Source: Candidatus Woesearchaeota archaeon (GTDB taxonomy: Archaea > Nanobdellota > Nanobdellia > Pacearchaeales > GW2011-AR1). From it: a stretch of DNA of 46,493 bases. The notes under the pieces are model-generated. The model was not told the DNA's origin. It did no database searches and saw only the letters and a list, made by a program, of their open reading frames with translations. How positions within the stretch are numbered: position 1 is the stretch's first letter; the number at the start of each line of letters is the position of its first letter. Shown here piece after piece: positions 8,211 to 44,216 of this stretch. The translations under genes were made by a program, and so were the position numbers. The stretch lies in the NCBI GenBank assembly GCA_964424875.1, contig CAYRKK010000001.1, positions 1 through 46,493 on the forward strand, written 5' to 3'.

Positions 8211-8227
8211 AATTGATAAAGGTGTTA

Positions 8228-8308
8228 CGCCGTCGCCCGGAATCGAACCGGGAAGCCCGTAAAGGCACTGGTCTCAAGCCAGTTGGAGTACCATTGTCCC
8301 ACGACGGC
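8228..8308 (-). tRNA. tRNA-Ser (anticodon UGA)
   Basis: Hand-folded cloverleaf. Acceptor stem GCCGTCG/CGACGGC; anticodon stem ACTGG/CCAGT with loop CTTGAGA. A 14-nt long variable arm; T arm CCCGG-TTCGATT-CCGGG; discriminator G. CCA is not encoded. Confidence 0.9.
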
Positions 8309-8332
8309 ATAATAAAAGTATAAGAATGTAGC

Positions 8333-11778: not shown

Positions 11779-12758
11779 ATGAAAGTTGCAATTAATGGTT
11801 TAGGAAGAATTGGAAGAACTGTTTTAAAATTGGTTTGGAAAAAGGAGTGAATATTGTTGCTGTAAATGATTTAACAGATTCCAAAACATTGGCTTATTTG
11901 ATAAAATATGATTCTGTTTATGGTGTTTATGATAAAAAAATTAAAATTAAAAACGATTTTATTGAAATTAATAATAAAAAAATAAAAATCTTAAAACAAG
12001 AAAATCCTGAAAATCTGCCTTGGAAAGATTTAGGGGTTGATGTGGTTGTTGAATCAACAGGAATTTTTAAAGATAGAGAAGGTGCTGAAAAACATTTAAA
12101 AGCTGGAGCAAAAAAAGTTTTAATATCTGCTCCTGCAAAAAATCCTGATATTACAATAGTCCCTGGTGTTAATGACAATAAATTAAAAAAAGAGCATAAA
12201 ATAATTTCTCTTGCAAGTTGCACAACAAATTGTTTAGCACCTGTTATTAAAGTTCTTAATGATAGTTTTGGTGTTAAAAAAGGTTTTATGACAACTGTTC
12301 ATGCTTATACTGGTGGGCAGAATATTATTGATAGTCCTCAAAAAAAATTAAGAAGAGGAAGAGCAGGAGCTATTAACATAGTTCCAACTACTTCAGGAGC
12401 TACAACAGCTGTTGCCGAAGTTATACCTTCTTTAAAAGGGAAATTAGATGGATTAGCTCTCAGAGTTCCTGTTGCTTGTGGAAGTATTGTTGATTTTGTT
12501 GCCGAATTAAAAAAAAGTGTTACTAAAGAACAGATTAACAAAGCATTTGAAAAAGCTGCAAATAAAAAAATGAAAGAAATTTTAAAATATACCGAAGAAG
12601 AATTAGTAAGTTCTGATATTATTGGAGACTCACACTCTTCAATTGTAGATGGATTATCAACACAAGTTAATGGAAATTTAATTAAAGTTTTAGCTTGGTA
12701 TGATAATGAATATGGTTATAGTTGCAGGATGGTTGATGTGATTAAGATGGTTGGGTGA
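11779..12758 (+). pseudogene. gap: Type I glyceraldehyde-3-phosphate dehydrogenase with a -1 frame break after codon ~17-19
   Basis: The N-terminal MKVAINGLGRIGRTVLK (the NAD-binding GxGRIG) is in one frame and stops at TGA 11848-11850. The rest (EKGVNIVAVNDL ... SCTTNC ... WYDNE) is in the -1 frame from 11835. SD GAGGTGA precedes the ATG at 11779. Confidence 0.85.
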
Positions 12759-12820
12759 GTTATTCAGTTAAATTTAAAATATCTTTATTCTTATATAATA
12801 AATAAAAAGAGGTTAAGATA

Positions 12821-13744
12821 ATGTATGATATAATAATTATTGGTGCTGGACCAGCAGGAATAACTGCTGCAATATATGCAGCTAGAAGAAAGCTAAACTT
12901 CTTAGTTTTAAGTTTAGATATTGGAGGGCAAATGTCTTGGAGTTCTGATGTTGATAATTATCCTGGTCTGCCTGATTTACCAGGAGTAGATGTTGTTGAA
13001 AAATTCCAAAAACATATGAAAGATTATAATATTAAAGTAAAGCAAGAAGAAGTTATTAATGTTCAGAAAAAACTCAGGACTTTTGTTGTTAAAACAAAAA
13101 AATTCAGCTATGAAGCTAAAACAGTTTTAATTGCTTCTGGAAAAAAACCAAAAAAACTAAATGTTCCTGGAGAAGAAGAATTTTTAGGTAAAGGAGTAAA
13201 TTACTGTGCAACTTGTGATGCTCCTCTTCAAAAAAATAAAATACTTGCAGTTATTGGAGGGGGAAATTCAGCTTTAGATGCAGCTAATTTTTTAAGCAAA
13301 TATGCAAAAAAGATTTATCTTCTTGATGTAAACTCAAAATTAGGAGGAGAGCCTGTTTTAAGAGACAAGGTTTTAAAAAACAAGAAAATTACACATATAC
13401 CTGGTGTTAAAGTTCTAGAAATTATTGGAGAAAAGTTTGTTAATAGTCTGAAGTACATTCAAAATAATCAAAACAAAATTTTAAAACTAGAAGGAGTTTT
13501 TATTGAGGTCGGATTAGTTTCTAAAGCTGATTTTATTAAATTAGTTAAAAAAAATAAATGGGGAGAAATAATGATTTTCAGAAGTACCAAATCACATGAA
13601 GAAAATCTCACAAGTGTTCCAGGAATTTTTGCAGCAGGGGATATTACAGATATTCCTGCAAAACAAATAGCTGCCGCAGTTGGAGAAGGTTGTAAAGCAG
13701 CTTTAGCTATTTTTGATTATTTAAATAAATATAAACTTTCTTAG
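12821..13744 (+). CDS. trxB: Thioredoxin reductase
   Basis: FAD motif IIIIGAGPAGITAA, redox-active CATC, second dinucleotide motif VIGGGNSALD, and GDITD. Confidence 0.85.
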   Translation: MYDIIIIGAGPAGITAAIYAARRKLNFLVLSLDIGGQMSWSSDVDNYPGLPDLPGVDVVEKFQKHMKDYNIKVKQEEVINVQKKLRTFVVKTKKFSYEAKTVLIASGKKPKKLNVPGEEEFLGKGVNYCATCDAPLQKNKILAVIGGGNSALDAANFLSKYAKKIYLLDVNSKLGGEPVLRDKVLKNKKITHIPGVKVLEIIGEKFVNSLKYIQNNQNKILKLEGVFIEVGLVSKADFIKLVKKNKWGEIMIFRSTKSHEENLTSVPGIFAAGDITDIPAKQIAAAVGEGCKAALAIFDYLNKYKLS

Positions 13745-13777
13745 AAAGACAAGTTTAATCAAAGAAAAAAGAAAAAA

Positions 13778-14908
13778 ATGAAAACTCTAAATGATTTTAA
13801 TTTTAAAGAAAAAACAGTTTTACTTAGAGCAGATTTAAATTCTGATGTTGTTGGAAAAAAAGTTTTAATAAGCGAAAGAATAAAAGCAAGTGTAGAAACA
13901 ATAAAAGAATTAAAAAAGAAAAAAGCTAAAATTGTTGTAATTGCTCATCAAGGAAATCCTGGAAAATCTAATTTTCTTTCTTTAAAACAACATTCTAAAC
14001 TTTTAAACAAATATACAAAAATTAAATTTGTAAAAGATATTATTGGTAAAAAAGCAGAAAAAGCAATAAAGAGTCTGAAACCAGGACAAGCTTTGCTTTT
14101 GGAAAATATTAGATTTATTAATGATGAGTTTCATCCTGAAAAAGCTCAGAAAAATAAACTAACAACCACATTATCAAAATTATGTGATGTTTATATTAAT
14201 GATGCTTTTTCTGTTTGCCATAGAAAACATACTTCTATTGTTTCATTTCCAAAATACATGAAAAGTTGTGCTGGCAGATTATTAGAAAAAGAAGTCAAAG
14301 CATTAAAAAAAATTAAAATTAAAAACTGTCTTTATATTCTTGGAGGAGCAAAACCTAAAGAAAACATAAGATTATTAAAAGGAAAAAATAAAATTCTTGC
14401 ATGTGGATTATTTGGCCAACTCTGCATTATAACAAAAGGGAAAAATCTTGGGTTTCAAAATAAATATTTAAAAGATGACTTGCCTTTAGTAAATAAACTA
14501 AAAAAGAAATTAAAAAATGTGCAAACTCCTGTTGATTTTGCTATTAAAATCAATAATAAAAGAGTTGAACTAGCTTTAGAAAAATTTCCAAGCAAATATG
14601 AAATTTATGATATCGGCAAAAAGACACAGGAAAAATATATAAAAGTAATAAGAAAAGCAAAAGCAATTTACATGAAAGGCCCTGCTGGATATTGTGCTGA
14701 TAAAAAGTTTTGCAAAGGTACAAACAAGATATTAAAAGCAATTGCAAAAAATAAAGGTTTTAGTGTTATTGGTGGAGGGCATTTAAGTGATGCTATTGAA
14801 AAATCAAAAATAAATAAAAAAAAGTTTAATCATATCAGCCTAAGTGGAGGAGCATTATTAAGATATATTGCAGGAGAAAAACTTCCTGGTTTAGAGGTGT
14901 TAAACTAA
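13778..14908 (+). CDS. pgk: Phosphoglycerate kinase (archaeal type)
   Basis: LLRADLNS, VIAHQGNPG and LLENIRF motifs, with glycolytic gene context. Confidence 0.85.
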   Translation: MKTLNDFNFKEKTVLLRADLNSDVVGKKVLISERIKASVETIKELKKKKAKIVVIAHQGNPGKSNFLSLKQHSKLLNKYTKIKFVKDIIGKKAEKAIKSLKPGQALLLENIRFINDEFHPEKAQKNKLTTTLSKLCDVYINDAFSVCHRKHTSIVSFPKYMKSCAGRLLEKEVKALKKIKIKNCLYILGGAKPKENIRLLKGKNKILACGLFGQLCIITKGKNLGFQNKYLKDDLPLVNKLKKKLKNVQTPVDFAIKINNKRVELALEKFPSKYEIYDIGKKTQEKYIKVIRKAKAIYMKGPAGYCADKKFCKGTNKILKAIAKNKGFSVIGGGHLSDAIEKSKINKKKFNHISLSGGALLRYIAGEKLPGLEVLN

Positions 14909-14979
14909 AACCCTGACAATAAATTAAAACCTTAACAATAAACTAAAATCCTAACAATAAACTAAATTCTGACAAATTA
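14904..14979. repeat. Four tandem 19-bp repeats (consensus ACTAAAAYCYTRACAATAA)
   Basis: Units at 14904-14922, 14923-14941, 14942-14960 and 14961-14979, the last degenerate. They begin within the pgk stop region and sit upstream of the pfkB-family gene. Confidence 0.8.
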
Positions 14980-15029
14980 GAAAAGCTTTTTAATAAGGAT
15001 TGTTTTATTTAATAATAAAAGAGGTAAAA

Positions 15030-15962
15030 ATGTTTGATATAATAACTTTTGGAAGCGGAGTAGTTGATGTTATAGTTGATACTGATTTGAATGAAAAAGG
15101 AAAGTTTATGTGTTATGAAGTTGGAAGCAAAATTCTTTTAAAAAATTTAAGATTTGATATTGGTGGAGGTGGAACTAATACTGCTGTGGCATTTTCAAGA
15201 TTAGGATTAAAAACAGGATGGATTGGAAATATCGGAAAGGATAATAATGGAAAAGAAATATTAAAAACCATTAAAACAGAAAAAATAAAATTCCTTGGTA
15301 AAATTAAAAAAAATGCTGTAAGCGGTTATTCAATAATCCTTGATAGCAAACAGAATAATAGAACTATTTTAACTTATAAGGGAATTAATGACCAGCTTTC
15401 TTTTAATGAAATTGAATTAAGAAAAATTAAAACTAACTGGTTATATTTTACATCTGCTTTAGAAAAAAGTTTTGAAACTCAGAAAAAGATTGCTAGACTT
15501 TTTAAAAAGAAAGGGGTAAAATTAGCATATAATCCAAGTGAGTATTTGATTAAGAGAAAAGATTTATCTGGTTTGTTAAAATTAACAGATATTTTAATAT
15601 TAAATAAACAAGAAGCAGAATTATTATTAAAAAAGAACAAGATTAAGGAAAAAGATTTGTTAAAAGGATTAAGTTATTTAGGACCAAAAATTATTGTAAT
15701 CACTGATAAAAATAAGTTGATTTCATGTTATGATAATCAGGAAGGGAAAAATAAAAAATATTATCTAAAACCAAATAAAATTAAAGTTGTTGAAAGAACA
15801 GGTGCAGGAGATGCTTTTGCTTCTGGATTTGTTGCTGGATTAATTGTTGATTGGAGCATTGAAAAATGTTTGAGACTAGGTTTAAAAGAAAGTGAAGCAG
15901 TTATAAAACATTTTGGAGCTAAAAATGAATTATTAAGGATGAGGTTGAAAAAAAATGTCTAG
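15030..15962 (+). CDS. PfkB/ribokinase-family sugar kinase
   Basis: GGGGTN motif and C-terminal TGAGDAFASGF. SD GAGGT at 15021-15025 precedes the ATG at 15030. Confidence 0.75.
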   Translation: MFDIITFGSGVVDVIVDTDLNEKGKFMCYEVGSKILLKNLRFDIGGGGTNTAVAFSRLGLKTGWIGNIGKDNNGKEILKTIKTEKIKFLGKIKKNAVSGYSIILDSKQNNRTILTYKGINDQLSFNEIELRKIKTNWLYFTSALEKSFETQKKIARLFKKKGVKLAYNPSEYLIKRKDLSGLLKLTDILILNKQEAELLLKKNKIKEKDLLKGLSYLGPKIIVITDKNKLISCYDNQEGKNKKYYLKPNKIKVVERTGAGDAFASGFVAGLIVDWSIEKCLRLGLKESEAVIKHFGAKNELLRMRLKKNV

Positions 15963-16056
15963 AAAGATTATTAATGTTTTACAAAGAATCGGAATTGCAA
16001 TAGGAATAATTGCAATTATAATATTAACAATAATAAATATGGGTAATTGGATATGA
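15955..16056 (+). CDS. Micro-ORF, 33 aa, single-pass membrane peptide
   Basis: MSRKIINVLQRIGIAIGIIAIIILTIINMGNWI. Its ATG overlaps the kinase stop, and its stop overlaps the next ATG (ATGA). Confidence 0.35.
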   Translation: MSRKIINVLQRIGIAIGIIAIIILTIINMGNWI

Positions 16057-16229
16057 AAAACTCACAAATCTTAAATATAATTGCAGCTATGATAGGTATA
16101 TCTCTTATGCTTTATTGGATTACTAGAACAAGTGGAACTGATTGTTTTACTTGGTTTGATTATACAGCAAGTTTTAGTTCATTATTTATTAATCTGGGTA
16201 TAAATATATTTGCTGCAGTAGGTAATTAA
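16053..16229 (+). CDS. Small membrane protein, 58 aa
   Basis: MKNSQILNIIAAMIGISLMLYW..., with two hydrophobic segments. It is chained to the flanking micro-ORFs. Confidence 0.45.
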   Translation: MKNSQILNIIAAMIGISLMLYWITRTSGTDCFTWFDYTASFSSLFINLGINIFAAVGN

Positions 16230-16230
16230 A

Positions 16231-16362
16231 ATGAATAAAGAAAAAACAAAAAAAGATGAATTAACTATTTTTGAAATAATTTTATTAACACTGGGTTCTT
16301 TGTTTTTATTAGGAGGTTTAGGTTTTTTGATTTATGCTTTAAAATTAAGATTTTTTGGATAA
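16231..16362 (+). CDS. Micro-ORF, 43 aa, single-pass membrane peptide
   Basis: MNKEKTKKDELTIFEIILLTLGSLFLLGGLGFLIYALKLRFFG. It starts 1 nt after the previous stop and ends 1 nt before the fba ATG. Confidence 0.35.
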   Translation: MNKEKTKKDELTIFEIILLTLGSLFLLGGLGFLIYALKLRFFG

Positions 16363-16363
16363 A

Positions 16364-17119
16364 ATGGTAAATTTAAACAAACTACTTAAAAAAGGAAAAG
16401 CATTGTTTTTAGCTTATGACCAAGGTTTAGAACATGGGCCAAGCGATTTTAATGATAAAAATGTTAATCCTCTGTATATTTTAGATATTGCAAAAAAAGG
16501 CAAATATAATGGAATTATATTTCAAAAAGGAATTGCGGAAAAATATAATAAGGAAATTAAAAAAAGCAAAGTTTCTTTGATTATAAAATTAAATGGAAAA
16601 ACTAATTTAGTTAAAGGAGAACCAATTTCTCGTCAACTCTGCACTGTTGATGAAGCAATTAAATTAGGGGCCATTGCTGTAGGTTATACTATTTATATTG
16701 GAAGCAAATATGAAAGTATTATGATGCAAGAGTTTGAAAAAATACAAAGAGAGGCACATTCAAAAGCATTGCCTGTAATTGCATGGATATATCCTAGAGG
16801 AAAAAGCATTAAAGGAAAATCAAAAAAAGAATTAATAGCTTATGCTTGTCGTTCTGGTTTAGAACTTGGTGCTGATATTATTAAAATTAATTATAATGGA
16901 AAAACTAATGATTTAAAATGGGCTGTTAAATCTGCTGGTAAAACAAAAGTAGTTATTGCAGGTGGTGTTAAAAAAAATGAAAAAGAATTAATTAAACAAG
17001 TTAAAGATATTATGGATACAGGTTGTATTGGATTAGCAATTGGAAGAAATATATGGCAGTCAAAAAACCCTTTAGAAATTACTAAAAAAATTAAAAACAT
17101 GATTTGGAAAAACCAATAA
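16364..17119 (+). CDS. fba: Archaeal class I fructose-bisphosphate aldolase (DhnA family)
   Basis: LAYDQGLEHGP and the IIKINY region with the Schiff-base lysine context. Adjacent to tpiA. Confidence 0.8.
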   Translation: MVNLNKLLKKGKALFLAYDQGLEHGPSDFNDKNVNPLYILDIAKKGKYNGIIFQKGIAEKYNKEIKKSKVSLIIKLNGKTNLVKGEPISRQLCTVDEAIKLGAIAVGYTIYIGSKYESIMMQEFEKIQREAHSKALPVIAWIYPRGKSIKGKSKKELIAYACRSGLELGADIIKINYNGKTNDLKWAVKSAGKTKVVIAGGVKKNEKELIKQVKDIMDTGCIGLAIGRNIWQSKNPLEITKKIKNMIWKNQ

Positions 17120-17122
17120 AAA

Positions 17123-17752
17123 ATGAAACCAATAATAATTATAAATTTTAAAACTTATAAACAAGGCAAGAAAGTAGTTGATTTAGCAAAAAAAATTGAA
17201 AAAGTAAGTAAAGATATTATCATAGGGGTTCAGGCAAATGATATTTATGAAGTTGCTAAAGCAACTAAACTAAAAGTATTTTCAGAACATGTTGATTATT
17301 TTAAACCAGGAAAATATACTGGTTATATTATTCCTGAAGCTATTAAAAAAGACAAGGCTGTTGGAAGTTTTTTAAATCATTCTGAACATAAATTAAAATT
17401 TGATGTTTTAGTGAAGAGTATTAAAAGATGCAAAGAAGTAAAATTAAAAACTGCTGTATTTGCAAAAGATTTAAAACAAGCAAAAAAAATTGAAAAACTT
17501 AAACCAGATTTTTTAATTTATGAACCTCCAGAATTAGTTGGAGGAAAAGTTTCAGTAAGCAATGCAAAACCTGGAGTGATTAGCAAGATAAAGAAAAATC
17601 TTAAATGTAAATTTCTTGTTGGTGCTGGAATTAAAAATAATGAAGATGTTAAAACAGCTATAAAGTTAGGTGCAAGTGGAATTGCTGTTTCAAGTGGGGT
17701 TGTGAATGCAAGGGATCCTGAGGGGAAGTTAAGGGGGTTGTTGGAGAGGTAG
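17123..17752 (+). CDS. tpiA: Triosephosphate isomerase (short archaeal form)
   Basis: INFKTY, LNHSEH and YEPPELVG motifs, in about 209 aa. Confidence 0.85.
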   Translation: MKPIIIINFKTYKQGKKVVDLAKKIEKVSKDIIIGVQANDIYEVAKATKLKVFSEHVDYFKPGKYTGYIIPEAIKKDKAVGSFLNHSEHKLKFDVLVKSIKRCKEVKLKTAVFAKDLKQAKKIEKLKPDFLIYEPPELVGGKVSVSNAKPGVISKIKKNLKCKFLVGAGIKNNEDVKTAIKLGASGIAVSSGVVNARDPEGKLRGLLER

Positions 17753-17894: not shown

Positions 17895-18881
17895 TTATTT
17901 ATTTACTTTTGACCTTAAAATTTCTTTATATGCCGGCATCCATGTTTCATAAATCATAATAAGATGTTCTTGGTTTCTTACAACCTCATGAAATTTCTTT
18001 CTTAGATCATTGATTATTTCATTAAACTTTTGATAATCTTCTACTACAAATTCTAACTCTGCCTCCCATGGTGCAATGCTTCTAATATAATATTGTGAAC
18101 TGGGTTGATTTTGCATCCATTGAAAAAGTCTTTCTTCATCCTTCTTAGATAATTTTTTGAAATAAACTATTGCTTTATAGAATTCTAATCCTAAAATATT
18201 AAGATCAACAGAAACTCTATAACTAAGAATTATCTCTTTTTCTTCTAATTTTTTAATTCTCGAACGAACTATGTCAATAGTCGATTTAACTTTTCTTGAT
18301 AACTCTAATAAAGAGATTCTTGCATCATTAGCTAAAATATCTAATATTCTGTAATCTAACTCATCAATTTTATTATCAACAATATTTCCTGCAAAAATAA
18401 CATAGTTACTTGGCGAATCTTCTAAGAAAATCCGTTTATTATACTGTCTTGTATCAACCATAGTACCAAGAACTTTACTAACAATTAGGTGTTGCCATTT
18501 AGATAATAATGAGTTAATTTTTTCATAATAATCTGTAATGTTTTTAGAAAGGATGGCAAAAACTAAGTCAAAAGCTCCATCAGAAATTCCCATCCAATAA
18601 ATATCTTTATTTTCCTTTAATTCCTTAAAAAATTTCTCTCTTTCTTCTGGGACATTTTCCAATTTTAAATATGCTTTAAACATATAGTATCCAAGTTTAT
18701 TGGGGTTAATTGATGTGATAAATCCTGTAATGATGCCCCTTTCTTGTAATTTTTGAATTCTATATCTAACTGTTTCTCTTGATTTATTGGTTTTCTTAGC
18801 TAATTGAGTATCTGAAATTCTACAATTTTTATCAAGTTCAGTTAATATCTTTCTATCTGCTAAATCTAATTTTATTTTCAT
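17895..18881 (-). CDS. Tandem-duplicated Lrp/AsnC-family transcriptional regulator
   Basis: Two HTH_AsnC-like modules (DLADRKILTELDKNCRISDTQLAKK... and LDYRILDILANDARISLLELSRK...), each followed by a RAM-like region. Divergent from the radical SAM gene. Confidence 0.8.
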   Translation of the reverse strand: MKIKLDLADRKILTELDKNCRISDTQLAKKTNKSRETVRYRIQKLQERGIITGFITSINPNKLGYYMFKAYLKLENVPEEREKFFKELKENKDIYWMGISDGAFDLVFAILSKNITDYYEKINSLLSKWQHLIVSKVLGTMVDTRQYNKRIFLEDSPSNYVIFAGNIVDNKIDELDYRILDILANDARISLLELSRKVKSTIDIVRSRIKKLEEKEIILSYRVSVDLNILGLEFYKAIVYFKKLSKKDEERLFQWMQNQPSSQYYIRSIAPWEAELEFVVEDYQKFNEIINDLRKKFHEVVRNQEHLIMIYETWMPAYKEILRSKVNK

Positions 18882-18997
18882 ATATTAACAAATTGAGGAT
18901 TAATATATAAATCTTTCCATAAATTGGTTAAAATAAGCTAAAAACTTTAATATACTTCTAATGAGTATTAGTATTAACTAAATGGTAGTAAAATAAG

Positions 18998-20587
18998 ATG
19001 AGTTTAGAAAAAATAAGCACGGAAACTGGAAATGATGAGAGAAATATAGATGGAGCTCCAAATTCTGCTTCAAGAATAAAGTCCTTATTTTTAAGTTCTC
19101 CATATCCCGGAGATCAAAAATTTGGAGGACAACCAACAGGCGCCTTATATTCATTAGCAACCTTAGCAGATAGAAAAGAAAAGGAATGTGGATCAAAAGA
19201 AGGTGTTAGAGAAGACATTGAAGTTTGGTGTCCAAAAGGAACTCCTGATTTTGAGGGTTCTGATCTTGAAAGAAAGTTAATAGATTATGTTCAAACTAAT
19301 AAACCTAAAGTAATTGGTATTAGCACATTTAGTGTTTCTTATGATAATACCCGAAGAATTAGAGATCAAGTAAAAAGTATTTCTCCTGAAACAGTAGTTG
19401 TATTTGGAGGAGCTCATGAAGATAATTCTGTTAAAGGATATAGGGAAAGGGGAGAAATAGATGCCGATTTTGTAATCGCGGGAGATGGAACTTATCTTTT
19501 GGATGAATTGCATAGGACTATTGAGCTTAATCCTGAAGATACTGTTGATGAAATAAAAAAGAAAGTTCAAGAGAATAACAGGTTTAGCGAATTACCGGGA
19601 GCAGGAGTTTTAATGTTTAATACTTCTGATAGATTAAGAGAGATAATAACAAAAAGGGATCCTCTAAGATTAGATCAATTACCAATAATTCCAAGATATT
19701 TAATTGAAAATGAAGATGCATCTGCAAGACAGTTTAGTATTTTTTGGGATAATAAAACTGCTCAAGTAATGGTCGGACAAGGATGTCCTTATGGATGTGG
19801 ATTTTGTAGTGAAGGGATTAAAAAAACTTGGTATGCTGAAGACTCACCAAGAGCAGTCAATCCAGCGAGAGATTTAACTCATGTAGAAACTGAGTTAGAA
19901 CAATTAAAGGATTCAGGATATCAGAGCATATTTTTTGATGATAGCACTTTTTTTGCAAAATCTAAAGATTATATGACTGGATTAGTTAAATTACTAAAAA
20001 AATATGATTTTGAATGGGGATGTCAAACAACTCAAAATTCTGTCCATAATATTGAGGGTCTGATCCCTGAAATGGTTCAGTCAGGTCTTAAATATGTTTA
20101 CATGGGTATTGAGCACTATGACGGCCAGATGAGAGATTCATTTGGAAAAAGTATTGGTGGTGGTAGTAAGTTTAATGGACATGCTGTTGAAGATACATTG
20201 AAAATTCTTAAAGATAATGGAATTAGCACAGGACTTTCCTTAACATTTGGTCATCCTGATCCTGAATCTCCAGAAGAAGAAACAAGAGAGACAATGACTA
20301 CTGCATCGTATTCTATTGCCAGAACTACAGAATTGATTGAACAGTTTCCAAATATTCAAGGGGTATCCCTTAATTTGATAACTTACCATCCTGGAACTCC
20401 AAATAGTGAGAGATATGAAAGAAAGGTAGGGGTTGTTGACTATACCTCTCATCCAAATAAAAGAGAACCTTTCACAAAGTTTGAAGAAGGAATTGGTAAC
20501 CATGCGAAGGGTATGACTGAGGAATTAGCACAACATATTCTTGATTATGCTAAAGAAAAAATTCCGGAGGATAGACTATGGATATAA
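18998..20587 (+). CDS. Cobalamin-binding-domain radical SAM enzyme
   Basis: B12-type Rossmann region (KVIGISTFS ... VVVFGGAHED) followed by the CxxxCxxC cluster motif GCPYGCGFCSEG. Confidence 0.85.
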   Translation: MSLEKISTETGNDERNIDGAPNSASRIKSLFLSSPYPGDQKFGGQPTGALYSLATLADRKEKECGSKEGVREDIEVWCPKGTPDFEGSDLERKLIDYVQTNKPKVIGISTFSVSYDNTRRIRDQVKSISPETVVVFGGAHEDNSVKGYRERGEIDADFVIAGDGTYLLDELHRTIELNPEDTVDEIKKKVQENNRFSELPGAGVLMFNTSDRLREIITKRDPLRLDQLPIIPRYLIENEDASARQFSIFWDNKTAQVMVGQGCPYGCGFCSEGIKKTWYAEDSPRAVNPARDLTHVETELEQLKDSGYQSIFFDDSTFFAKSKDYMTGLVKLLKKYDFEWGCQTTQNSVHNIEGLIPEMVQSGLKYVYMGIEHYDGQMRDSFGKSIGGGSKFNGHAVEDTLKILKDNGISTGLSLTFGHPDPESPEEETRETMTTASYSIARTTELIEQFPNIQGVSLNLITYHPGTPNSERYERKVGVVDYTSHPNKREPFTKFEEGIGNHAKGMTEELAQHILDYAKEKIPEDRLWI

Positions 20588-21831
20588 AAAAAGATTTTAA
20601 GGCAGACTGTTATGTTCAAAACAAAAGTCTGTTTAATAGATATAGAAATTATGAAATAGAAGATGAAGAAGTAGTTGATTTTAATCACGCCTCTTTAGCA
20701 AGACCTTATAAGGAAGTTTTCGATGCATTACAAAAAAGTCTTCCTTCACAAGCAAGACTTTATGCAGGTTCTATAGTGGGCATAAATGACCCGACAAAGG
20801 TACTTTTTGGAAGAAATACAACTGAAGCATTAAGTTTAACTTACTGGTTAGCAGGAGTTAAAGAAGGAAATGTAGTATTAACTGATGCAGAAAATGAGTC
20901 AGTTCTTAGAATTTATAGGGAACATAGAGATCATGGAAATACTAATAAAAGCGACGGATGGTCAACTTTTGCAGATGATGTAATCTCTGAAGATTATGAG
21001 GGTATTAGCAATAGTCATGTTACTGGAACATCAGTTAGAACATCAAAGTTTCTTGGAGAATATAATCCTGAATTAATATTAGATCAAGTTGATGAAAAAA
21101 CCAAGTTAGTATTAGTAAGTCATGTTGTTAGAAATGATGGAAGGATTATAGACATTGAAGAGCTGGCAAGAAAGGTTAAGGAAAAAAATCCGGACACATA
21201 TTTTGCAGTAGACGGAGCACAAGCATTAGGTAATCTTTCAAGAATAGATTTTAATGAATTAGAAGAAGCTGGAGTTGACTTTTATGCAGCAACACCTCAT
21301 AAAACATTAGGTAGTTATCCTTTAGGGATCTTATATGTTGGAGAGAGAGTTAAAAAAAGGATAAATGAATTGAATGGAAAACAGCCGACTGAACAAATTA
21401 TAATGGATGGCATGATTCCTTATGATTATAATATTCCTTCTAATGTTGATTCCGTACTTAATCCTCTTAGATATCTTAGTTTGATTACTACAATAGACGC
21501 CTTAAGAGAAAAAGGGTTTTTAAAAGACAGTGACTTTTCAGAAAAATCTAAACAGATTCAAAGAATAAAAGATTCATTTTATGAAAGATTGAAAACACAA
21601 AATGCAGAAATACTTAGTGAAGGAGAAGAGTATTCTCCTGCAATAGCCTCATTTAGATTTAATGGTAGAAATAATGCTAAGGTAGTGAGAGATCTTCAAG
21701 AACAAGGAGTGTTTTGCTCATATATTTCTGAATCAGATAATATTCGAGTTTCTTTTGAAGTGACAAATAATGAAGGGGATATAGATAGATTTTTTGAAGA
21801 ACTAAAAAATAACCAACATCAATTTTTCTAA
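20578..21831 (+). CDS. Class V (fold-type I) PLP-dependent enzyme, cysteine desulfurase / aminotransferase-like
   Basis: FAVDGAQALG and ATPHKTLG (candidate PLP lysine). Its start overlaps the radical SAM stop by 10 nt (ATGGATATAA). Confidence 0.8.
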   Translation: MDIKKDFKADCYVQNKSLFNRYRNYEIEDEEVVDFNHASLARPYKEVFDALQKSLPSQARLYAGSIVGINDPTKVLFGRNTTEALSLTYWLAGVKEGNVVLTDAENESVLRIYREHRDHGNTNKSDGWSTFADDVISEDYEGISNSHVTGTSVRTSKFLGEYNPELILDQVDEKTKLVLVSHVVRNDGRIIDIEELARKVKEKNPDTYFAVDGAQALGNLSRIDFNELEEAGVDFYAATPHKTLGSYPLGILYVGERVKKRINELNGKQPTEQIIMDGMIPYDYNIPSNVDSVLNPLRYLSLITTIDALREKGFLKDSDFSEKSKQIQRIKDSFYERLKTQNAEILSEGEEYSPAIASFRFNGRNNAKVVRDLQEQGVFCSYISESDNIRVSFEVTNNEGDIDRFFEELKNNQHQFF

Positions 21832-21900: not shown

Positions 21901-21966
21901 TTCACCCAACCACATCACTAATCTTTTCAATCAAATCCATAGCTGTTAAAGAAACTTTCTTTTTTT
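21901..21966. repeat. 66-bp direct repeat, copy 1 (relic of the nnr 3' end)
   Basis: TTCACCCAACCACATCACTAATCTTTTCAATCAAATCCATAGCTGTTAAAGAAACTTTCTTTTTT. It matches 22657-22722 apart from about 4 mismatches. Confidence 0.85.
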
Positions 21967-22518
21967 ATTTTTCTTCCTCCAAAAGAACTTATTTGCAATT
22001 TTCTTTGTTATATATCTACATCTATCAACTTCATTAATCAAATTTCTTGATGCAATTTCATCAAACGAAACCATCTCTATTTCCTTATTCTTATCTTTAA
22101 CATATTTTGCCAACTGAGAAAAATCACCATCTCCTGAAAATAAAACTGCTTTATCATATTTGTCTTCCCAAGCATGATTAAGCATATCTAAAGCTAGATA
22201 AATGTCATCTCCTTTTATTGTATAATATTCTTCATCCTCTTTAGTAAATCTTTTTTGCCTTTTACATAAGATAACTTCATATTTAGGTAGTTTTCTTAAT
22301 CTTGCAAGTAGTTTCTGCTGTTCCTTAAATCTTCTTGGATTAACTTCTTGTTTCAGTGAAGCATTGTAATAAAAAATATTCACTATTTTATTTTTGCCAA
22401 CAATCATTTTGATATAATTTTCAAAATCAAAATGATAATCTGAATATTTTGGATGTAGAGATTTCAAACCATAAACAAAGTTAGCACCATCAATATAAAT
22501 AGAAATTCTTTTTGCCAT
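21946..22518 (-). CDS. NYN-domain (LabA/DUF88-like, PIN-related) putative ribonuclease
   Basis: ISIYIDGANFVYG and VLFSGDGDFSQL motifs. The last ~7 codons and the stop lie inside repeat copy 1. Confidence 0.8.
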   Translation of the reverse strand: MAKRISIYIDGANFVYGLKSLHPKYSDYHFDFENYIKMIVGKNKIVNIFYYNASLKQEVNPRRFKEQQKLLARLRKLPKYEVILCKRQKRFTKEDEEYYTIKGDDIYLALDMLNHAWEDKYDKAVLFSGDGDFSQLAKYVKDKNKEIEMVSFDEIASRNLINEVDRCRYITKKIANKFFWRKKNKKRKFL

Positions 22519-42947: not shown

Positions 42948-44216
42948 ATGGAAGAGGATTTTGAAAAACAAGATTATCTAAAAGAGGAATCAGATAATCC
43001 ATGGGAAGAAACATCTGAAAAACAATCAAGTTCATCAGATGATTATTCTTATAAACCTGATAAAGAAACTTCTTCTCAACCACCCATATCTTCTTTTCCC
43101 AAGCCTTCTCCAATAACACCTGTTTCTCAACCAAGACCTTCTTTAATAATTGATAAATCATCAGAACTTTCAGAAATAGATAGAGAATTAGAAGAAATAC
43201 TTAAAAAACAACATGCTAAAGTAAAAGTCTTTGGTTTAGGAGGTGCAGGAGGAAATACAATTTCAAGAATGAAAGAAATTGGAATTAAAGGGGGAGAGTT
43301 TATTGCATTAAACACAGATGCTCAAGATCTTTTATATTCAAATGCAGATTATAAGATTTTAATTGGCAGAGAATTAACAATGGGCTTAGGAGCAGGTTCA
43401 AATCCCAAAATTGGAGAAGAAGCAGCTCATGAATCAGAACAAGAAATCAAGAAAAAATTAGCAGGATGTGACATGGTTTTTATAACCTGTGGTTTGGGCG
43501 GAGGAACAGGAACAGGAGCAGCACCAGTTGTTGCTCAATTAGCAAAAAAACAAGGAGCACTAACAATAGGAGTTGTAACCTTGCCATTTACAATTGAAGG
43601 AAAAAAAAGAATTGAAAACGCAGAATATGGTTTAGAAAGATTAGAATCAATTGTTGACACTTTAATTGTAATACCAAATGATAAACTATTAGAAATTGCC
43701 CCCGAATTACCCTTACAAACTGCATTTAAAGTAGCAGATGAAATTTTAACAAATGCAGTAAAAGGAACAACAGAACTTGTAACAAAATCAGGTTTAGTTA
43801 ATTTAGATTTTGCAGATGTTAAAGCAGTTATGGCTAATGGAGGAGTTTCTTTAATGGGAATGGGTGAATCAGATTCCGCTAACAGAGCTTTAGAAGCAGT
43901 TGAAAAAGCATTGTCTAATCCTCTTTTAGATGTTGATATTTCAAATGCAACAGGAGCTTTAGTTAATATTATTGGAGGGAATGATATGAGTTTAGATGAA
44001 GCTCGGGCAATTATTGCAGCAGTTGGAGACCAACTTTCTCCAGATGCTAAAATGATTTGGGGAGCTCAATTATCCCCTGAAATGGAAAAATCAATTAGAG
44101 TTATGATAATAATAACTGGTGTAAAATCAGCCCAAATTACAGGAGGAGTTTTACCTTCTGATTTACAAAAACAAGTTGAAATGGGAGATGAGTTGGGAAT
44201 AGAGTTTTTGGAGTAG
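42948..44216 (+). CDS. ftsZ: Cell division protein FtsZ with a ~85-aa Ser/Pro/Glu-rich N-terminal extension
   Basis: GLGGAGGN and the tubulin signature [12 protein letters not shown]. Confidence 0.9.

What the first reader, a model, noticed from the sequence alone, without database searches (positions are those of the whole stretch)
17895..21831. Compositionally foreign cassette: tandem-Lrp regulator, B12-binding radical SAM and class V PLP enzyme
A divergently transcribed double-module Lrp/AsnC regulator faces two translationally coupled genes that share a 10-nt overlap (ATGGATATAA).

- The first gene is a radical SAM enzyme with a cobalamin-type Rossmann domain and a GCPYGCGFC cluster motif.
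- The second is a fold-type I class V PLP enzyme; the candidate PLP lysine lies in ATPHKTLG.
- The 116-bp divergent region has TATA-like boxes for both directions. These are TTTAATATA at 18946-18954, and ATTTATATATTAA on the minus strand near 18899-18911.
- A small palindrome, CTAAT-GAGT-ATTAG (18958-18971), sits between the TATA box and the radical SAM start, which is an operator-like position.

Both enzymes look richer in Arg, Gly, Asp and Pro than the Lys/Ile/Asn-dominated housekeeping genes on either side. The DNA also looks visibly less AT-rich, which suggests horizontal acquisition.

I cannot assign the pair to a characterised pathway. Radical chemistry (often methylation) plus PLP chemistry under an amino-acid-sensing regulator suggests modification of an amino-acid-derived metabolite or cofactor. 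That would be unexpected in a reduced genome.
Basis: partly seen in the sequence, partly recalled or inferred. Interest (0 to 1): 0.8.

Follow-up and report, generated by a model that had tools for sequence, protein, structure and literature searches.

The report
Lrp-controlled radical SAM–PLP enzyme pair
A tiny symbiotic archaeon carries two tightly coupled, uncharacterised enzymes (a B12-type radical SAM enzyme and a vitamin-B6 enzyme) that are fused into one protein in other microbes; they sit behind a promoter controlled by a widely conserved double Lrp regulator and probably modify an amino acid, but they are not a recent foreign insertion.

Summary

**What changes**
- **Not "foreign".** The extra GC of the two enzyme genes lies in codon positions 1 and 2. 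GC3 and codon usage fall within the window's range.
- **The tandem Lrp is not part of a cassette.** It is a native regulator, about 70% conserved in at least 365 Woesearchaeota/Nanoarchaeota proteins. It carries a conserved bidirectional promoter and operator box (window 18918-18934). Different genomes place different cargo genes behind that promoter.

**What holds up, more strongly than claimed**
- The radical SAM family has only about 30 members. It lies beside the tandem Lrp in 17 of 17 loci.
- The PLP gene follows in 12 of 19 loci.
- Among the next-nearest relatives, 17 cluster representatives are single-chain fusions of radical SAM and this same PLP family, including one from Patescibacteria.
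- The PLP enzyme has a SufS fold but lacks a conserved desulfurase cysteine.
- No characterised family matches either enzyme.

**Most likely function:** consecutive radical and PLP chemistry on an imported amino-acid-type substrate. The actual reaction is unknown.

The parts
17895..18881 (-). Tandem (double-module) Lrp/AsnC regulator, 328 aa ('LRP2'). Module 1 is about aa 1-160; module 2 is about aa 165-328.
   Evidence: Two HTH_AsnC-type/HTH_24 hits. PDB: aa 4-129 match LrpA 1i1g (E = 5e-13) and aa 170-290 match LrpC 2cfx. At least 365 homologues, more than 120 of them at 69-82% identity. Native composition.
18882..18894 (.). Proximal half-site (ATATTAACAAATT). It is the inverted partner of the conserved box and lies between the Lrp TATA and the Lrp start codon.
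   Evidence: Equivalent to TTTACCGTT / TTAACCG in other loci. It forms an inverted repeat with the distal box 23-30 nt away. It is degenerate in the window.
18900..18912 (-). TATA box of the Lrp gene (TTAATATATAAAT on the + strand). It lies 19-31 nt before the ATG, which implies a leaderless or near-leaderless mRNA.
   Evidence: Sequence. Conserved as T(T/A)ATATATAAAT in all Lrp loci. The transcription start is inferred, not shown.
18918..18934 (.). Conserved operator-like box CATAAATTGGTTAAAAT (consensus ATAAANYGGTNAA). It lies between the two promoters.
   Evidence: Window matches: 2 against 0.18 expected. There is one match per related locus, and 19 of 21 matches sit 40-52 nt upstream of the Lrp ATG whatever the cargo gene is.
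18940..18954 (+). BRE/TATA of the radical SAM operon (AAAAACTTTAATATA).
   Evidence: Conserved as AAA(C/G)TTTAATATA in the radical SAM loci and in Lrp loci with other cargo.
18958..18971 (.). It is present but is not a conserved element.
   Evidence: There is no counterpart in the aligned intergenic regions.
18984..18988 (+). Shine-Dalgarno-like GGTAG, 9 nt before the radical SAM ATG.
   Evidence: GGTAG/GGTGA/GGAGT is conserved at this position across loci.
18998..20587 (+). Radical SAM enzyme with a B12-binding domain, 529 aa. The Rossmann domain is about aa 29-200 (19082-19597). The CxxxCxxC motif is at 19784-19807. The radical SAM core is about 19772-20281.
   Evidence: Pfam. Family alignment A1 has only three invariant Cys. 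AF2 model: pLDDT 85, pTM 0.86. Foldseek: TsrM E = 4e-18, then TokK, AprD4, MiaB, with TM about 0.5.
20566..20587 (+). Coupling junction: SD GGAGG (20566-20570) and the 10-nt overlap ATGGATATAA (20578-20587).
   Evidence: The same overlap, CTATGGATRTRA, occurs in L004, L006, L010, L013 and L027.
20578..21831 (+). SufS-fold (class V, fold-type I) PLP enzyme, 417 aa. The Lys242 codon is at 21301-21303 and the Arg390 codon at 21745-21747. There is no conserved desulfurase cysteine.
   Evidence: Pfam. Alignments. AF2 model pLDDT 92.6. Foldseek: SufS and C-DES, TM about 0.67.

Best explanation
**What it is.** The locus has two layers.

1. *Regulatory module.* A native tandem-Lrp transcription factor, conserved across the lineage, sits on its own bidirectional promoter. 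A conserved box (window 18918-18934) and an inverted partner flank the Lrp TATA. The box lies about 12 nt upstream of the BRE/TATA of the divergent gene. The regulator can therefore control its own gene and whichever cargo gene lies behind the divergent promoter, probably in response to an amino acid.
2. *Cargo.* In this genome the cargo is a translationally coupled two-gene operon. It encodes an obligate enzyme pair:
   - a class-B-type radical SAM enzyme (B12-binding Rossmann domain plus one [4Fe-4S]/SAM site);
   - a SufS-fold PLP enzyme that keeps the PLP lysine, the aspartate and the alpha-carboxylate arginine but has no conserved persulfide cysteine.

**How it most likely works.** The two proteins act as a complex, or in direct succession, on a free alpha-amino-acid-type substrate that is probably imported.
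- The radical SAM enzyme functionalises an unactivated carbon. Methyl transfer through cobalamin is the commonest chemistry of this architecture.
- The PLP enzyme then carries out transamination or elimination.

**Shown versus inferred.**
- Shown: the gene anatomy, the co-evolution and fusion of the two enzymes, the conserved promoter and operator, and the native composition.
- Inferred: DNA binding by the regulator, the effector, cobalamin use, the substrate and the reaction.
For: **The pair is a functional unit**
- The PLP gene directly follows the radical SAM gene in 12 of 19 distinct loci. The 10-nt overlap is conserved in the closest relatives.
- An exhaustive profile search finds that 17 of 147 listed cluster representatives outside the family are single-chain fusions. 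All 17 rank among the best ~50 hits.
- The fusion architecture is B12-binding + Radical_SAM + Aminotran_5.
- The PLP halves of the fusions are specific homologues of the window enzyme: 32-45% identity, and 236-478 bits against the family profile. Both domain orders occur.

**An amino-acid-type substrate**
- Arg390, Lys242 and Asp212 are invariant, and R60, R79 and R185 are also conserved.
- Two bacterial fusions lie directly downstream of Liv-type ABC importer genes.
- Archaeal loci have an amino-acid permease or an MFS transporter near the regulator.
- One close relative (L010) adds a fold-type II PLP enzyme to the operon.

**Regulator**
- The tandem Lrp is present in 17 of 17 radical SAM loci that include upstream DNA. 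It also lies beside a deeply divergent fusion in L041.
- Its best structural relatives by sequence are bona fide Lrp regulators.
- The operator box is conserved at a fixed position.

**Radical SAM class**
- Pfam assignments, and fold matches to TsrM, TokK and AprD4.

**Native, not foreign**
- GC3 and codon usage.
Against: - No substrate or reaction is demonstrated.
- No homologue is characterised. NCBIfam best hits score 55-63 bits against cutoffs of 550-600.
- Seven of 19 loci lack an adjacent PLP gene. The radical SAM enzyme may therefore work alone or with a partner encoded elsewhere.
- B12-like domains do not always bind cobalamin; AprD4 is among the fold matches. No cobalamin uptake or salvage gene is visible in the 46-kb window.
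- The tandem Lrp is not specific to this cargo. Five of five Lrp loci sampled from long contigs carry other genes. Radical-SAM-linked Lrp proteins do not form a clade. Adjacency could therefore partly reflect a preferred integration site.
- Other members of the wider radical SAM clade are fused to STAND/AAA NTPases and DUF4062. That hints at conflict systems rather than metabolism.
Confidence: 0.5

Rival explanations
1. Sulfur-insertion system. The PLP protein is a cysteine desulfurase or C-S lyase that mobilises sulfur, and the radical SAM enzyme inserts it into a substrate, as in MiaB, LipA or BioB.
For: - The closest sequence and fold matches of the PLP enzyme are cysteine desulfurases (SufS/IscS/NifS) and the cystine lyase C-DES.
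- MiaB is among the fold matches of the radical SAM model.
- C-DES shows that a persulfide can be made without a catalytic cysteine (established knowledge of that family).
Against: - Cys380 is not conserved. It is C/S/T/V/L/A within the family and V/L/I/N in the fusions.
- The PLP-stacking His of desulfurases is replaced by Asn106 in more than 90% of sequences.
- The radical SAM family has only the three cysteines of the SAM cluster as invariant Cys. It therefore has no auxiliary Fe-S cluster of the kind sulfur-inserting enzymes use.
- The N-terminal domain matches B12-binding, not the UPF0004 domain of methylthiotransferases.
Confidence: 0.1
2. Conflict or defence cargo. The pair makes a toxic or antiviral metabolite, such as an antimetabolite amino acid or a modified nucleotide. 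It sits in a variable, island-like slot beside the tandem Lrp.
For: - The slot behind the Lrp divergent promoter holds different cargo in different genomes. Examples are a 238-240-aa unknown protein followed by a Fic gene or by an HATPase_c-domain protein, an 83-aa protein with a different radical SAM, and an FG-GAP protein.
- In the window a NYN/LabA-like gene with a PADLOC HEC-09 match follows the pair.
- Wider-clade relatives are fused to STAND/AAA NTPases, DUF4062 and HD-CE, and weakly match the PADLOC candidate PDC-M51A.
- Distribution is patchy: about 30 radical SAM proteins against at least 365 Lrp proteins.
Against: - The window radical SAM protein has no PADLOC match at E <= 0.01. The PLP hits to SspA/DndA are generic desulfurase similarity.
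- The window flanks are housekeeping genes: glycolysis, NAD(P)HX dehydratase and ribosomal proteins.
- The bacterial fusions are embedded in nutrient-uptake operons, not defence islands.
- The NTPase-fused relatives lack the PLP domain, so they may be functionally distinct.
Confidence: 0.12
3. Macromolecule modification. The radical SAM enzyme methylates or otherwise modifies a tRNA, rRNA, protein or lipid, as Mmp10, QCMT or the GDGT-modifying enzymes do. The PLP enzyme has a separate or accessory role.
For: - Many archaeal B12-domain radical SAM enzymes act on proteins or lipids (established knowledge; papers listed).
- Seven of 19 loci lack the PLP gene.
- A reduced genome might more plausibly keep a modification enzyme than a small-molecule pathway (inference).
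Against: - Repeated independent fusion to this specific PLP family argues that the two share one substrate path.
- The fusions are linked to amino-acid-type importers.
- There are no RNA-binding, TRAM, RRE or SPASM domains.
- There is no conserved neighbouring substrate gene.
Confidence: 0.1
4. A three-gene cassette of regulator plus two enzymes was acquired recently by horizontal transfer, and the palindrome at 18958-18971 is its operator.
For: - Overall GC of the two enzyme genes is higher, at z = 2.2 and 1.2.
- The enzymes have a patchy distribution.
- Relatives occur in bacteria, including Patescibacteria.
Against: - GC3 (z = 1.0 and 0.3) and the codon-usage likelihood (z = -1.4 and -1.0) lie within the window's range. 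The excess GC is in codon positions 1 and 2.
- The regulator has native composition. It belongs to a family of at least 365 members, mostly without these enzymes.
- The nearest relatives outside the Woesearchaeota family are at most about 32% identical, so any transfer was ancient.
- The palindrome is not conserved.
Confidence: 0.07

Closest known systems
Orf29/Orf30 (Swb7/Swb6) module for 1-amino-2-methylcyclopropane-carboxylate in Streptomyces (PMC7277169; PMC10491745)
   Same: - Adjacent genes encode a B12-binding-domain radical SAM enzyme and a fold-type I PLP enzyme.
- The two act in direct succession on an amino-acid-type substrate. The radical SAM enzyme C-methylates the methionine moiety of SAM, and the PLP enzyme then cyclises it.
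- This is the best known precedent for how the window pair may work.
   Different: - Orf30 is a class I/II-fold aminotransferase-like enzyme, not class V (supplement Table S5).
- Orf29 is a 640-aa TokK/ThnK-like protein. The window family matches TokK only at E = 0.004.
- That module sits in NRPS clusters of actinomycetes. This one sits in DPANN archaea under Lrp control.
- The relationship is analogy, not membership.
Class B (cobalamin-dependent) radical SAM enzymes: TsrM, TokK/ThnK, PhpK, Fom3, and the cobalamin-free AprD4
   Same: - An N-terminal Rossmann B12-binding domain followed by a CxxxCxxC radical SAM barrel.
- The best fold matches are TsrM (E = 4e-18), TokK and AprD4.
   Different: - About 15-17% identity and TM about 0.5.
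- No NCBIfam subfamily or equivalog is approached.
- The family has its own invariant motifs, for example N-terminal PYPG..F.GQPTG and C-terminal FEEGxGxH.
- It has an obligate class-V PLP partner, which none of those enzymes has.
SufS / IscS / NifS cysteine desulfurases and C-DES cystine lyase (PF00266)
   Same: - Same fold, TM about 0.67.
- The PLP Lys in an HK motif, the Asp-x-x-Gln motif and the alpha-carboxylate Arg are conserved.
   Different: - No conserved catalytic Cys.
- The PLP-stacking His is replaced by Asn106.
- There is a family-specific DHGN...WST loop and three extra conserved arginines.
- NCBIfam scores are 63 bits or less against cutoffs above 350.
Archaeal Lrp/AsnC (feast/famine) regulators: LrpA, FL11, LysM, Ptr2
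   Same: - An HTH plus a C-terminal effector/oligomerisation module.
- Divergent arrangement with a target gene, binding sites that flank its own TATA (autoregulation), and a site upstream of the target BRE/TATA (established knowledge of the family).
   Different: - Two complete modules in one 328-aa chain, that is, a covalent dimer.
- The C-terminal halves do not reach Pfam PF01037.
- The cargo behind its divergent promoter differs between genomes.
Sirohaem decarboxylase AhbA/AhbB and NirDL (Lrp-like enzymes, sometimes fused, encoded near radical SAM genes; PMC4145669)
   Same: An Lrp-like fold, two-module fusions, and radical SAM enzymes encoded nearby.
   Different: - Matches are only to the HTH, at E = 1.5e-3 and 7.6e-3 and 16-18 bits against cutoffs of 125-140.
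- None appears among the PDB hits, which are all regulators.
- There is no haem-pathway context.
- A conserved DNA box is present.
- Rejected.

Membership tests
Class B (B12-binding domain) radical SAM enzymes | N-terminal Rossmann-type B12-binding domain (PF02310) | tested here: met
   PF02310 scores 42.9 bits against a cutoff of 32.1, covering aa 92-171. The model shows a Rossmann domain at aa 29-200. Fold matches are TsrM and TokK.
Class B (B12-binding domain) radical SAM enzymes | CxxxCxxC motif for the [4Fe-4S]/SAM site in a (partial) TIM barrel | tested here: met
   C263/C267/C270 are invariant in 27 sequences. PF04055 scores 36.6 bits against a cutoff of 29.5.
Class B (B12-binding domain) radical SAM enzymes | Actual cobalamin binding and cobalamin-mediated methyl transfer | not testable with these tools
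   There is no sequence signature that decides this. AprD4, which has the same domain without cobalamin, is among the fold matches. No B12-related gene is present in the 46-kb window.
Any named NCBIfam radical SAM subfamily (PhpK, KedN5, HpnJ/R, ApyD, TIGR04434 ...) | Whole-protein score at or above the curated cutoff | tested here: not met
   The best hit is TIGR04434 at 62.7 bits against a cutoff of 550. PhpK scores 54.2 against 600.
Cysteine desulfurase (SufS/IscS/NifS) | PLP-binding Lys, pyridine-N Asp and alpha-carboxylate Arg | tested here: met
   K242, D212 and R390 are invariant.
Cysteine desulfurase (SufS/IscS/NifS) | Conserved catalytic cysteine that forms the persulfide | tested here: not met
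   The only candidate, C380, varies (C/S/T/V/L/A/I/N) across the family and the fusions.
Cysteine desulfurase (SufS/IscS/NifS) | His stacking on the PLP ring (E-H motif) | tested here: not met
   The aligned position is E105-N106, with Asn in 92% of sequences. This rests on an alignment, not on a solved structure.
Lrp/AsnC (FFRP) transcription regulators | N-terminal AsnC-type winged HTH | tested here: met
   Two copies: PF13404 at 79 bits and PF13412 at 80 bits, each with two stretches.
Lrp/AsnC (FFRP) transcription regulators | C-terminal RAM (effector/oligomerisation) domain | tested here: inconclusive
   There is no PF01037 hit. However, PDB alignments to full-length LrpA (aa 4-129) and LrpC (aa 170-290) extend well past the HTH. 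No model was made.
Lrp/AsnC (FFRP) transcription regulators | Specific DNA operator in its own or its target promoter | tested here: met
   The conserved box ATAAANYGGTNAA lies at a fixed position upstream of the gene in 19 of 21 matches in loci. It is enriched in the window, with 2 matches against 0.18 expected. Binding itself is inferred.
Sirohaem decarboxylase AhbA/B, NirDL | Score at the family cutoff; haem or d1 pathway context | tested here: not met
   16-18 bits against cutoffs of 125-140, HTH region only. No haem genes are nearby.
MeACC module (Orf29/Orf30) | PLP partner of the class I/II fold homologous to GnmY; TokK-like 640-aa radical SAM enzyme | tested here: not met
   The window PLP enzyme is class V. 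Orf30 is annotated as class I/II-fold. The radical SAM profile matches TokK only at E = 0.004. The Orf29 and Orf30 sequences themselves were not available for comparison.
Known or candidate anti-phage defence systems (PADLOC) | Match of the signature proteins to a PADLOC model | tested here: not met
   The radical SAM protein has no hit. The PLP protein gives only generic SspA/DndA desulfurase similarity.

The most novel reading that the evidence does not exclude
The radical SAM and PLP proteins form one composite three-cofactor catalyst ([4Fe-4S]/SAM, cobalamin and PLP), either as a complex or as a single fused chain. An amino acid held as a PLP aldimine would be attacked by the 5'-deoxyadenosyl radical or by methyl-cobalamin. 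That would be a new enzyme class which makes or destroys an unusual amino acid. Its occurrence in ultra-small DPANN archaea and CPR bacteria would mean it processes a host-derived metabolite central to the episymbiotic lifestyle. In parallel, the tandem Lrp and its conserved bidirectional promoter would act as a plug-in expression platform for swappable accessory genes in Woesearchaeota.
Probability: 0.15. Interest if true: 0.85.

Novelty: new variant of a known kind. Interest (0 to 1): 0.6.

Why it matters
- **A testable enzyme unit.** A B12-type radical SAM enzyme and a SufS-fold PLP enzyme have co-evolved and fused repeatedly. No member is characterised and the papers searched do not mention the pair. 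Pairs like this have produced new chemistry before, for example MeACC formation.
- **An unexpected host.** The pair occurs in organisms with very small genomes (DPANN archaea, Patescibacteria) and next to amino-acid-type importers. A retained three-cofactor enzyme there probably acts on something that matters for life with a host.
- **A rare regulatory handle.** The tandem Lrp, its conserved operator and the interchangeable cargo gene give a concrete regulatory element to study in an uncultured archaeal lineage.
- **A methodological caution.** A GC bump caused by amino-acid content should not be read as horizontal transfer.

Tried and rejected
- **Sirohaem-decarboxylase-like enzyme role for the tandem Lrp.** Rejected. 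Matches are to the HTH only and far below cutoff. All PDB hits are regulators. A conserved DNA box exists.
- **Cysteine desulfurase function.** Rejected. There is no conserved Cys and no stacking His. The radical SAM family has no auxiliary-cluster cysteines.
- **Homology to the MeACC pair Orf29/Orf30.** Rejected as membership, because the PLP fold class differs. Kept as a mechanistic analogy.
- **Phosphonate pathway (PhpK, Fom3, PhnW).** There are only weak partial PhpK-family hits, no PhnW-type hit, and no PEP mutase in any locus.
- **Defence-system assignment.** PADLOC gives nothing for the radical SAM protein.
- **Riboswitch or other RNA element.** Rfam finds nothing in the window at gathering thresholds.
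- **Sigma-70 promoter and intrinsic terminator scan.** No enrichment, and not relevant to an archaeon.
- **Other conserved neighbours.** Clustering ORFs from 19 loci found only the three genes shared.
- **Neighbours of the tandem Lrp.** They are unrelated to each other: TldD/PmbA, NFACT, signal-peptide peptidase and others.
- **Literature searches.** No description was found of a radical SAM-class V fusion or of a tandem Lrp in DPANN.
- **Names and taxonomy for the fusions.** Cluster look-ups named only one, from Patescibacteria.
- **Could not be done.**
  - One contig (168,880 bp) returned gene calls but no DNA.

Full report

- Pfam confirms two AsnC-type HTH modules in the first protein.
- It confirms B12-binding plus Radical_SAM in the second, and Aminotran_5 in the third. 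All score above their gathering thresholds.
- The motifs GCPYGCGFC and ATPHKTLG are present. Their key residues, C263/C267/C270 and K242, are invariant in family alignments.
- The 10-nt overlap ATGGATATAA (20578-20587) is real. GGAGG lies 7 nt upstream of it.
- The same overlap, CTATGGATRTRA, is found in five related loci.
- The two TATA-like boxes are present; the minus-strand one is one base off.
- The small palindrome at 18958-18971 exists. It has only 5-nt arms and has no counterpart in any related locus.

**2. Composition**

The two enzyme genes are more GC-rich than the background: 0.345 and 0.315 against 0.279 +/- 0.029. They are also richer in R/G/D/P/A.

- The excess lies in codon positions 1 and 2.
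- GC3 is 0.177 and 0.158 against 0.148 +/- 0.029, which gives z = 1.0 and 0.3.
- The synonymous-codon likelihood (z = -1.4 and -1.0) lies within the range of other genes in the window.
- FtsZ (42948-44216) and two other genes are just as GC-rich.
- The Lrp gene has native composition.

The bump therefore reflects protein composition. It is not evidence of recent transfer.

The rest of the window is ordinary archaeal housekeeping:
- ribosomal L1 and L10;
- GAPDH, PGK, a PfkB kinase, class I aldolase and TIM;
- a TYW1-like radical SAM enzyme;
- FtsZ and several glycosyltransferases.

Related contigs are labelled Woesearchaeota, Nanoarchaeota or simply "archaeon".

**3. The radical SAM family**

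- A search of 5.8 billion proteins finds only about 30 close relatives, at 43-75% identity. Identity then drops to 32% and 24%.
- No NCBIfam model is approached.
- The only PDB sequence match for the family profile is TokK at E = 0.004.
- A confident AF2 model (pLDDT 85, pTM 0.86) resembles cobalamin-dependent radical SAM enzymes best. The matches are TsrM and TokK, then AprD4 and MiaB, at TM about 0.5.
- Only the three SAM-cluster cysteines are invariant. This argues against an auxiliary cluster.

**4. The PLP family**

- There are about 20 close relatives.
- The model (pLDDT 92.6) has a SufS/C-DES fold, with TM about 0.67.
- K242, D212, Q215, H241 and the carboxylate-binding R390 are conserved.
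- The only candidate catalytic cysteine (C380) is not conserved.
- The PLP-stacking His is replaced by Asn106.
- The clade has its own DHGN...WST loop and three further conserved arginines.
- It is therefore not a persulfide-forming desulfurase. It most likely acts on an alpha-amino acid.

**5. Do the genes belong together?**

I collected 29 loci from genome and metagenome scans.

- The tandem Lrp lies divergently upstream of the radical SAM gene in all 17 distinct loci that include upstream DNA.
- The PLP gene follows directly in 12 of 19 loci.
- Nothing else is shared, and the flanks differ completely.

The strongest result comes from the exhaustive profile search.

- The best hits outside the family are proteins of 941-1408 aa with the architecture B12-binding + Radical_SAM + Aminotran_5.
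- Their PLP halves are specific homologues of the window enzyme: 32-45% identity, and 236-478 bits against the family profile.
- 17 of 147 listed representatives are such fusions, and all 17 rank among the best ~50 hits. Both domain orders occur.
- One fusion is annotated as coming from Patescibacteria.

This is a classic Rosetta-stone signal that the two proteins work as one unit.

**6. Context of relatives**

- Two bacterial fusions lie directly after Liv-type ABC importer genes.
- An archaeal fusion (L041) lies divergent to a tandem Lrp that is 61% identical to the window protein. An MFS transporter sits alongside.
- Woesearchaeal loci have an amino-acid permease or an MFS transporter near the regulator.
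- The closest relative (L010) has an extra fold-type II PLP enzyme at the head of the operon.
- A 32%-identical stand-alone relative lies in a natural-product-like operon.

Together these point to a small amino-acid-type substrate.

**7. The regulator is not part of a cassette**

- The tandem Lrp has at least 365 homologues. More than 120 of them are 69-82% identical to the window protein. That is far more than the radical SAM family.
- It is more conserved than the enzymes: 65-82% identity, against 51-75% for the radical SAM protein and 48-63% for the PLP protein.
- In five Lrp loci chosen only for contig length, the divergent gene is something else:
  - a 238-240-aa unknown protein (two loci);
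  - an 83-aa protein with a different 464-aa radical SAM enzyme and an ABC importer;
  - an FG-GAP protein;
  - no called gene.
- In a neighbour-joining tree, the Lrp proteins linked to this radical SAM enzyme are intermixed with the others. The tree has no bootstrap support.
- The intergenic architecture is nevertheless conserved everywhere. In order, it runs:
  - the Lrp start codon;
  - a proximal half-site;
  - the Lrp TATA;
  - a box with consensus ATAAANYGGTNAA;
  - a BRE/TATA of the form AAAGTTTAATATA;
  - a leader with a GGTAG/GGTGA Shine-Dalgarno sequence.
- The box occurs once per locus. 19 of 21 matches lie 40-52 nt upstream of the Lrp ATG.
- In the window the box lies at 18919-18931, with 2 matches against 0.18 expected.

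The real operator candidate is thus this box (18918-18934) with its degenerate inverted partner (18882-18894).

The geometry fits autoregulation together with control of the divergent promoter: the two sites flank the Lrp TATA, and one lies just upstream of the cargo BRE/TATA. Other archaeal Lrp regulators work this way (established knowledge). Binding and the effector are inferred.

**8. What it most likely does**

A native, amino-acid-sensing tandem Lrp drives a coupled operon for an obligate radical SAM-PLP pair. The pair processes an amino-acid-type substrate in two steps.

- The first step is radical functionalisation. Cobalamin-mediated C-methylation is the commonest chemistry for this architecture.
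- The second step is PLP-dependent transamination or elimination.

The nearest known precedent for this logic is the Orf29/Orf30 module. There a B12 radical SAM enzyme methylates SAM, and a PLP enzyme then makes methyl-ACC (PMC7277169; PMC10491745). That PLP enzyme has a class I/II fold, so the resemblance is analogy, not membership.

I put about 0.5 on the general statement and about 0.3 on methylation specifically.

Rivals are listed with their evidence: sulfur insertion, conflict-system cargo, macromolecule modification and recent horizontal acquisition. Each is weaker.

**9. Novelty**

Both superfamilies are known, and a B12 radical SAM enzyme with a PLP partner has a precedent. The following features were not described in anything I could search:

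- this radical SAM family;
- its obligate, repeatedly fused class-V partner that lacks the desulfurase cysteine;
- its presence in DPANN and CPR organisms;
- the tandem Lrp with its conserved promoter and interchangeable cargo.

I rate it a new variant of a known kind, with interest 0.6.

Noticed in passing
window 16359-16371: A second exact match to the Lrp operator consensus, ATAAAATGGTAAA, lies at the very start of the class I aldolase gene (16355-17119) in the glycolytic cluster. The window has 2 matches against 0.18 expected; 1 of 100 shuffles reached 2. It could be a second target of the tandem Lrp, or chance.
   Followed up: no
L030 4122-4838; L033 1824-2546; L031 3248-4890; L038 4124-4879: The slot behind the tandem Lrp's divergent promoter holds different cargo in different genomes. 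Seen so far are a 238/240-aa unknown protein (45% identical between two loci), an 83-aa protein with a different 464-aa B12-like radical SAM enzyme and a Liv-type ABC importer, and an FG-GAP protein. The promoter and operator are conserved in all of them.
   Followed up: partly
L015 5738-5992 and L031 4639-4890: A conserved small protein of 83-84 aa (66% identical between the two loci) lies between the Lrp-side promoter and two different radical SAM genes. By eye its ...GSNHP...RPCPIAAST... core resembles HicA/YcfA-like proteins. This was not tested.
   Followed up: no
L010 1382-2272: In the closest relative of the window radical SAM enzyme (75% identity), a 296-aa fold-type II PLP enzyme (PF00291) is inserted ahead of the radical SAM gene. 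That operon therefore has two PLP enzymes.
   Followed up: partly
proteins P0219, P0226, P0227, P0239, P0240, P0232 (relatives): Other members of the wider radical SAM clade are fused to AAA/STAND NTPase domains, DUF4062, or PocR plus HD-CE, and not to the PLP domain. They weakly match the PADLOC candidate PDC-M51A. This suggests that a branch of the clade works in conflict or signalling systems.
   Followed up: partly
window 21946-22518 (-): The gene just downstream of the pair, on the opposite strand, encodes a NYN/LabA-like nuclease-domain protein. It matches PADLOC HEC-09 at E = 1e-15. A Fic gene occupies the equivalent position in another locus.
   Followed up: no
window 11835-17752: A compact glycolysis-type cluster lies on the + strand. 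It holds GAPDH, a thioredoxin-reductase-like flavoprotein, PGK, a PfkB-family kinase, a class I (DeoC/LacD-type) aldolase and a short archaeal TIM.
   Followed up: no
window 8227-8309: ARAGORN calls a tRNA-Ser (TGA anticodon) here. Rfam at gathering thresholds reports no RNA family anywhere in the window. The discrepancy was not examined.
   Followed up: no
proteins P0163, P0095: Tandem-Lrp homologues about 70% identical to the archaeal protein are deposited under bacterial names (Candidatus Nomurabacteria, Bacteroidota). Mis-binned archaeal contigs are the likely cause.
   Followed up: no
L043 10551-14676 and L001 12746-15111: An arginyl-tRNA synthetase gene lies within a few kb of the radical SAM gene in two unrelated loci. 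One is bacterial and also has an arginine-deiminase/DDAH-type gene. The other is archaeal and also has a pyruvoyl arginine decarboxylase. This may be coincidence or a hint of an arginine-related substrate.
   Followed up: no
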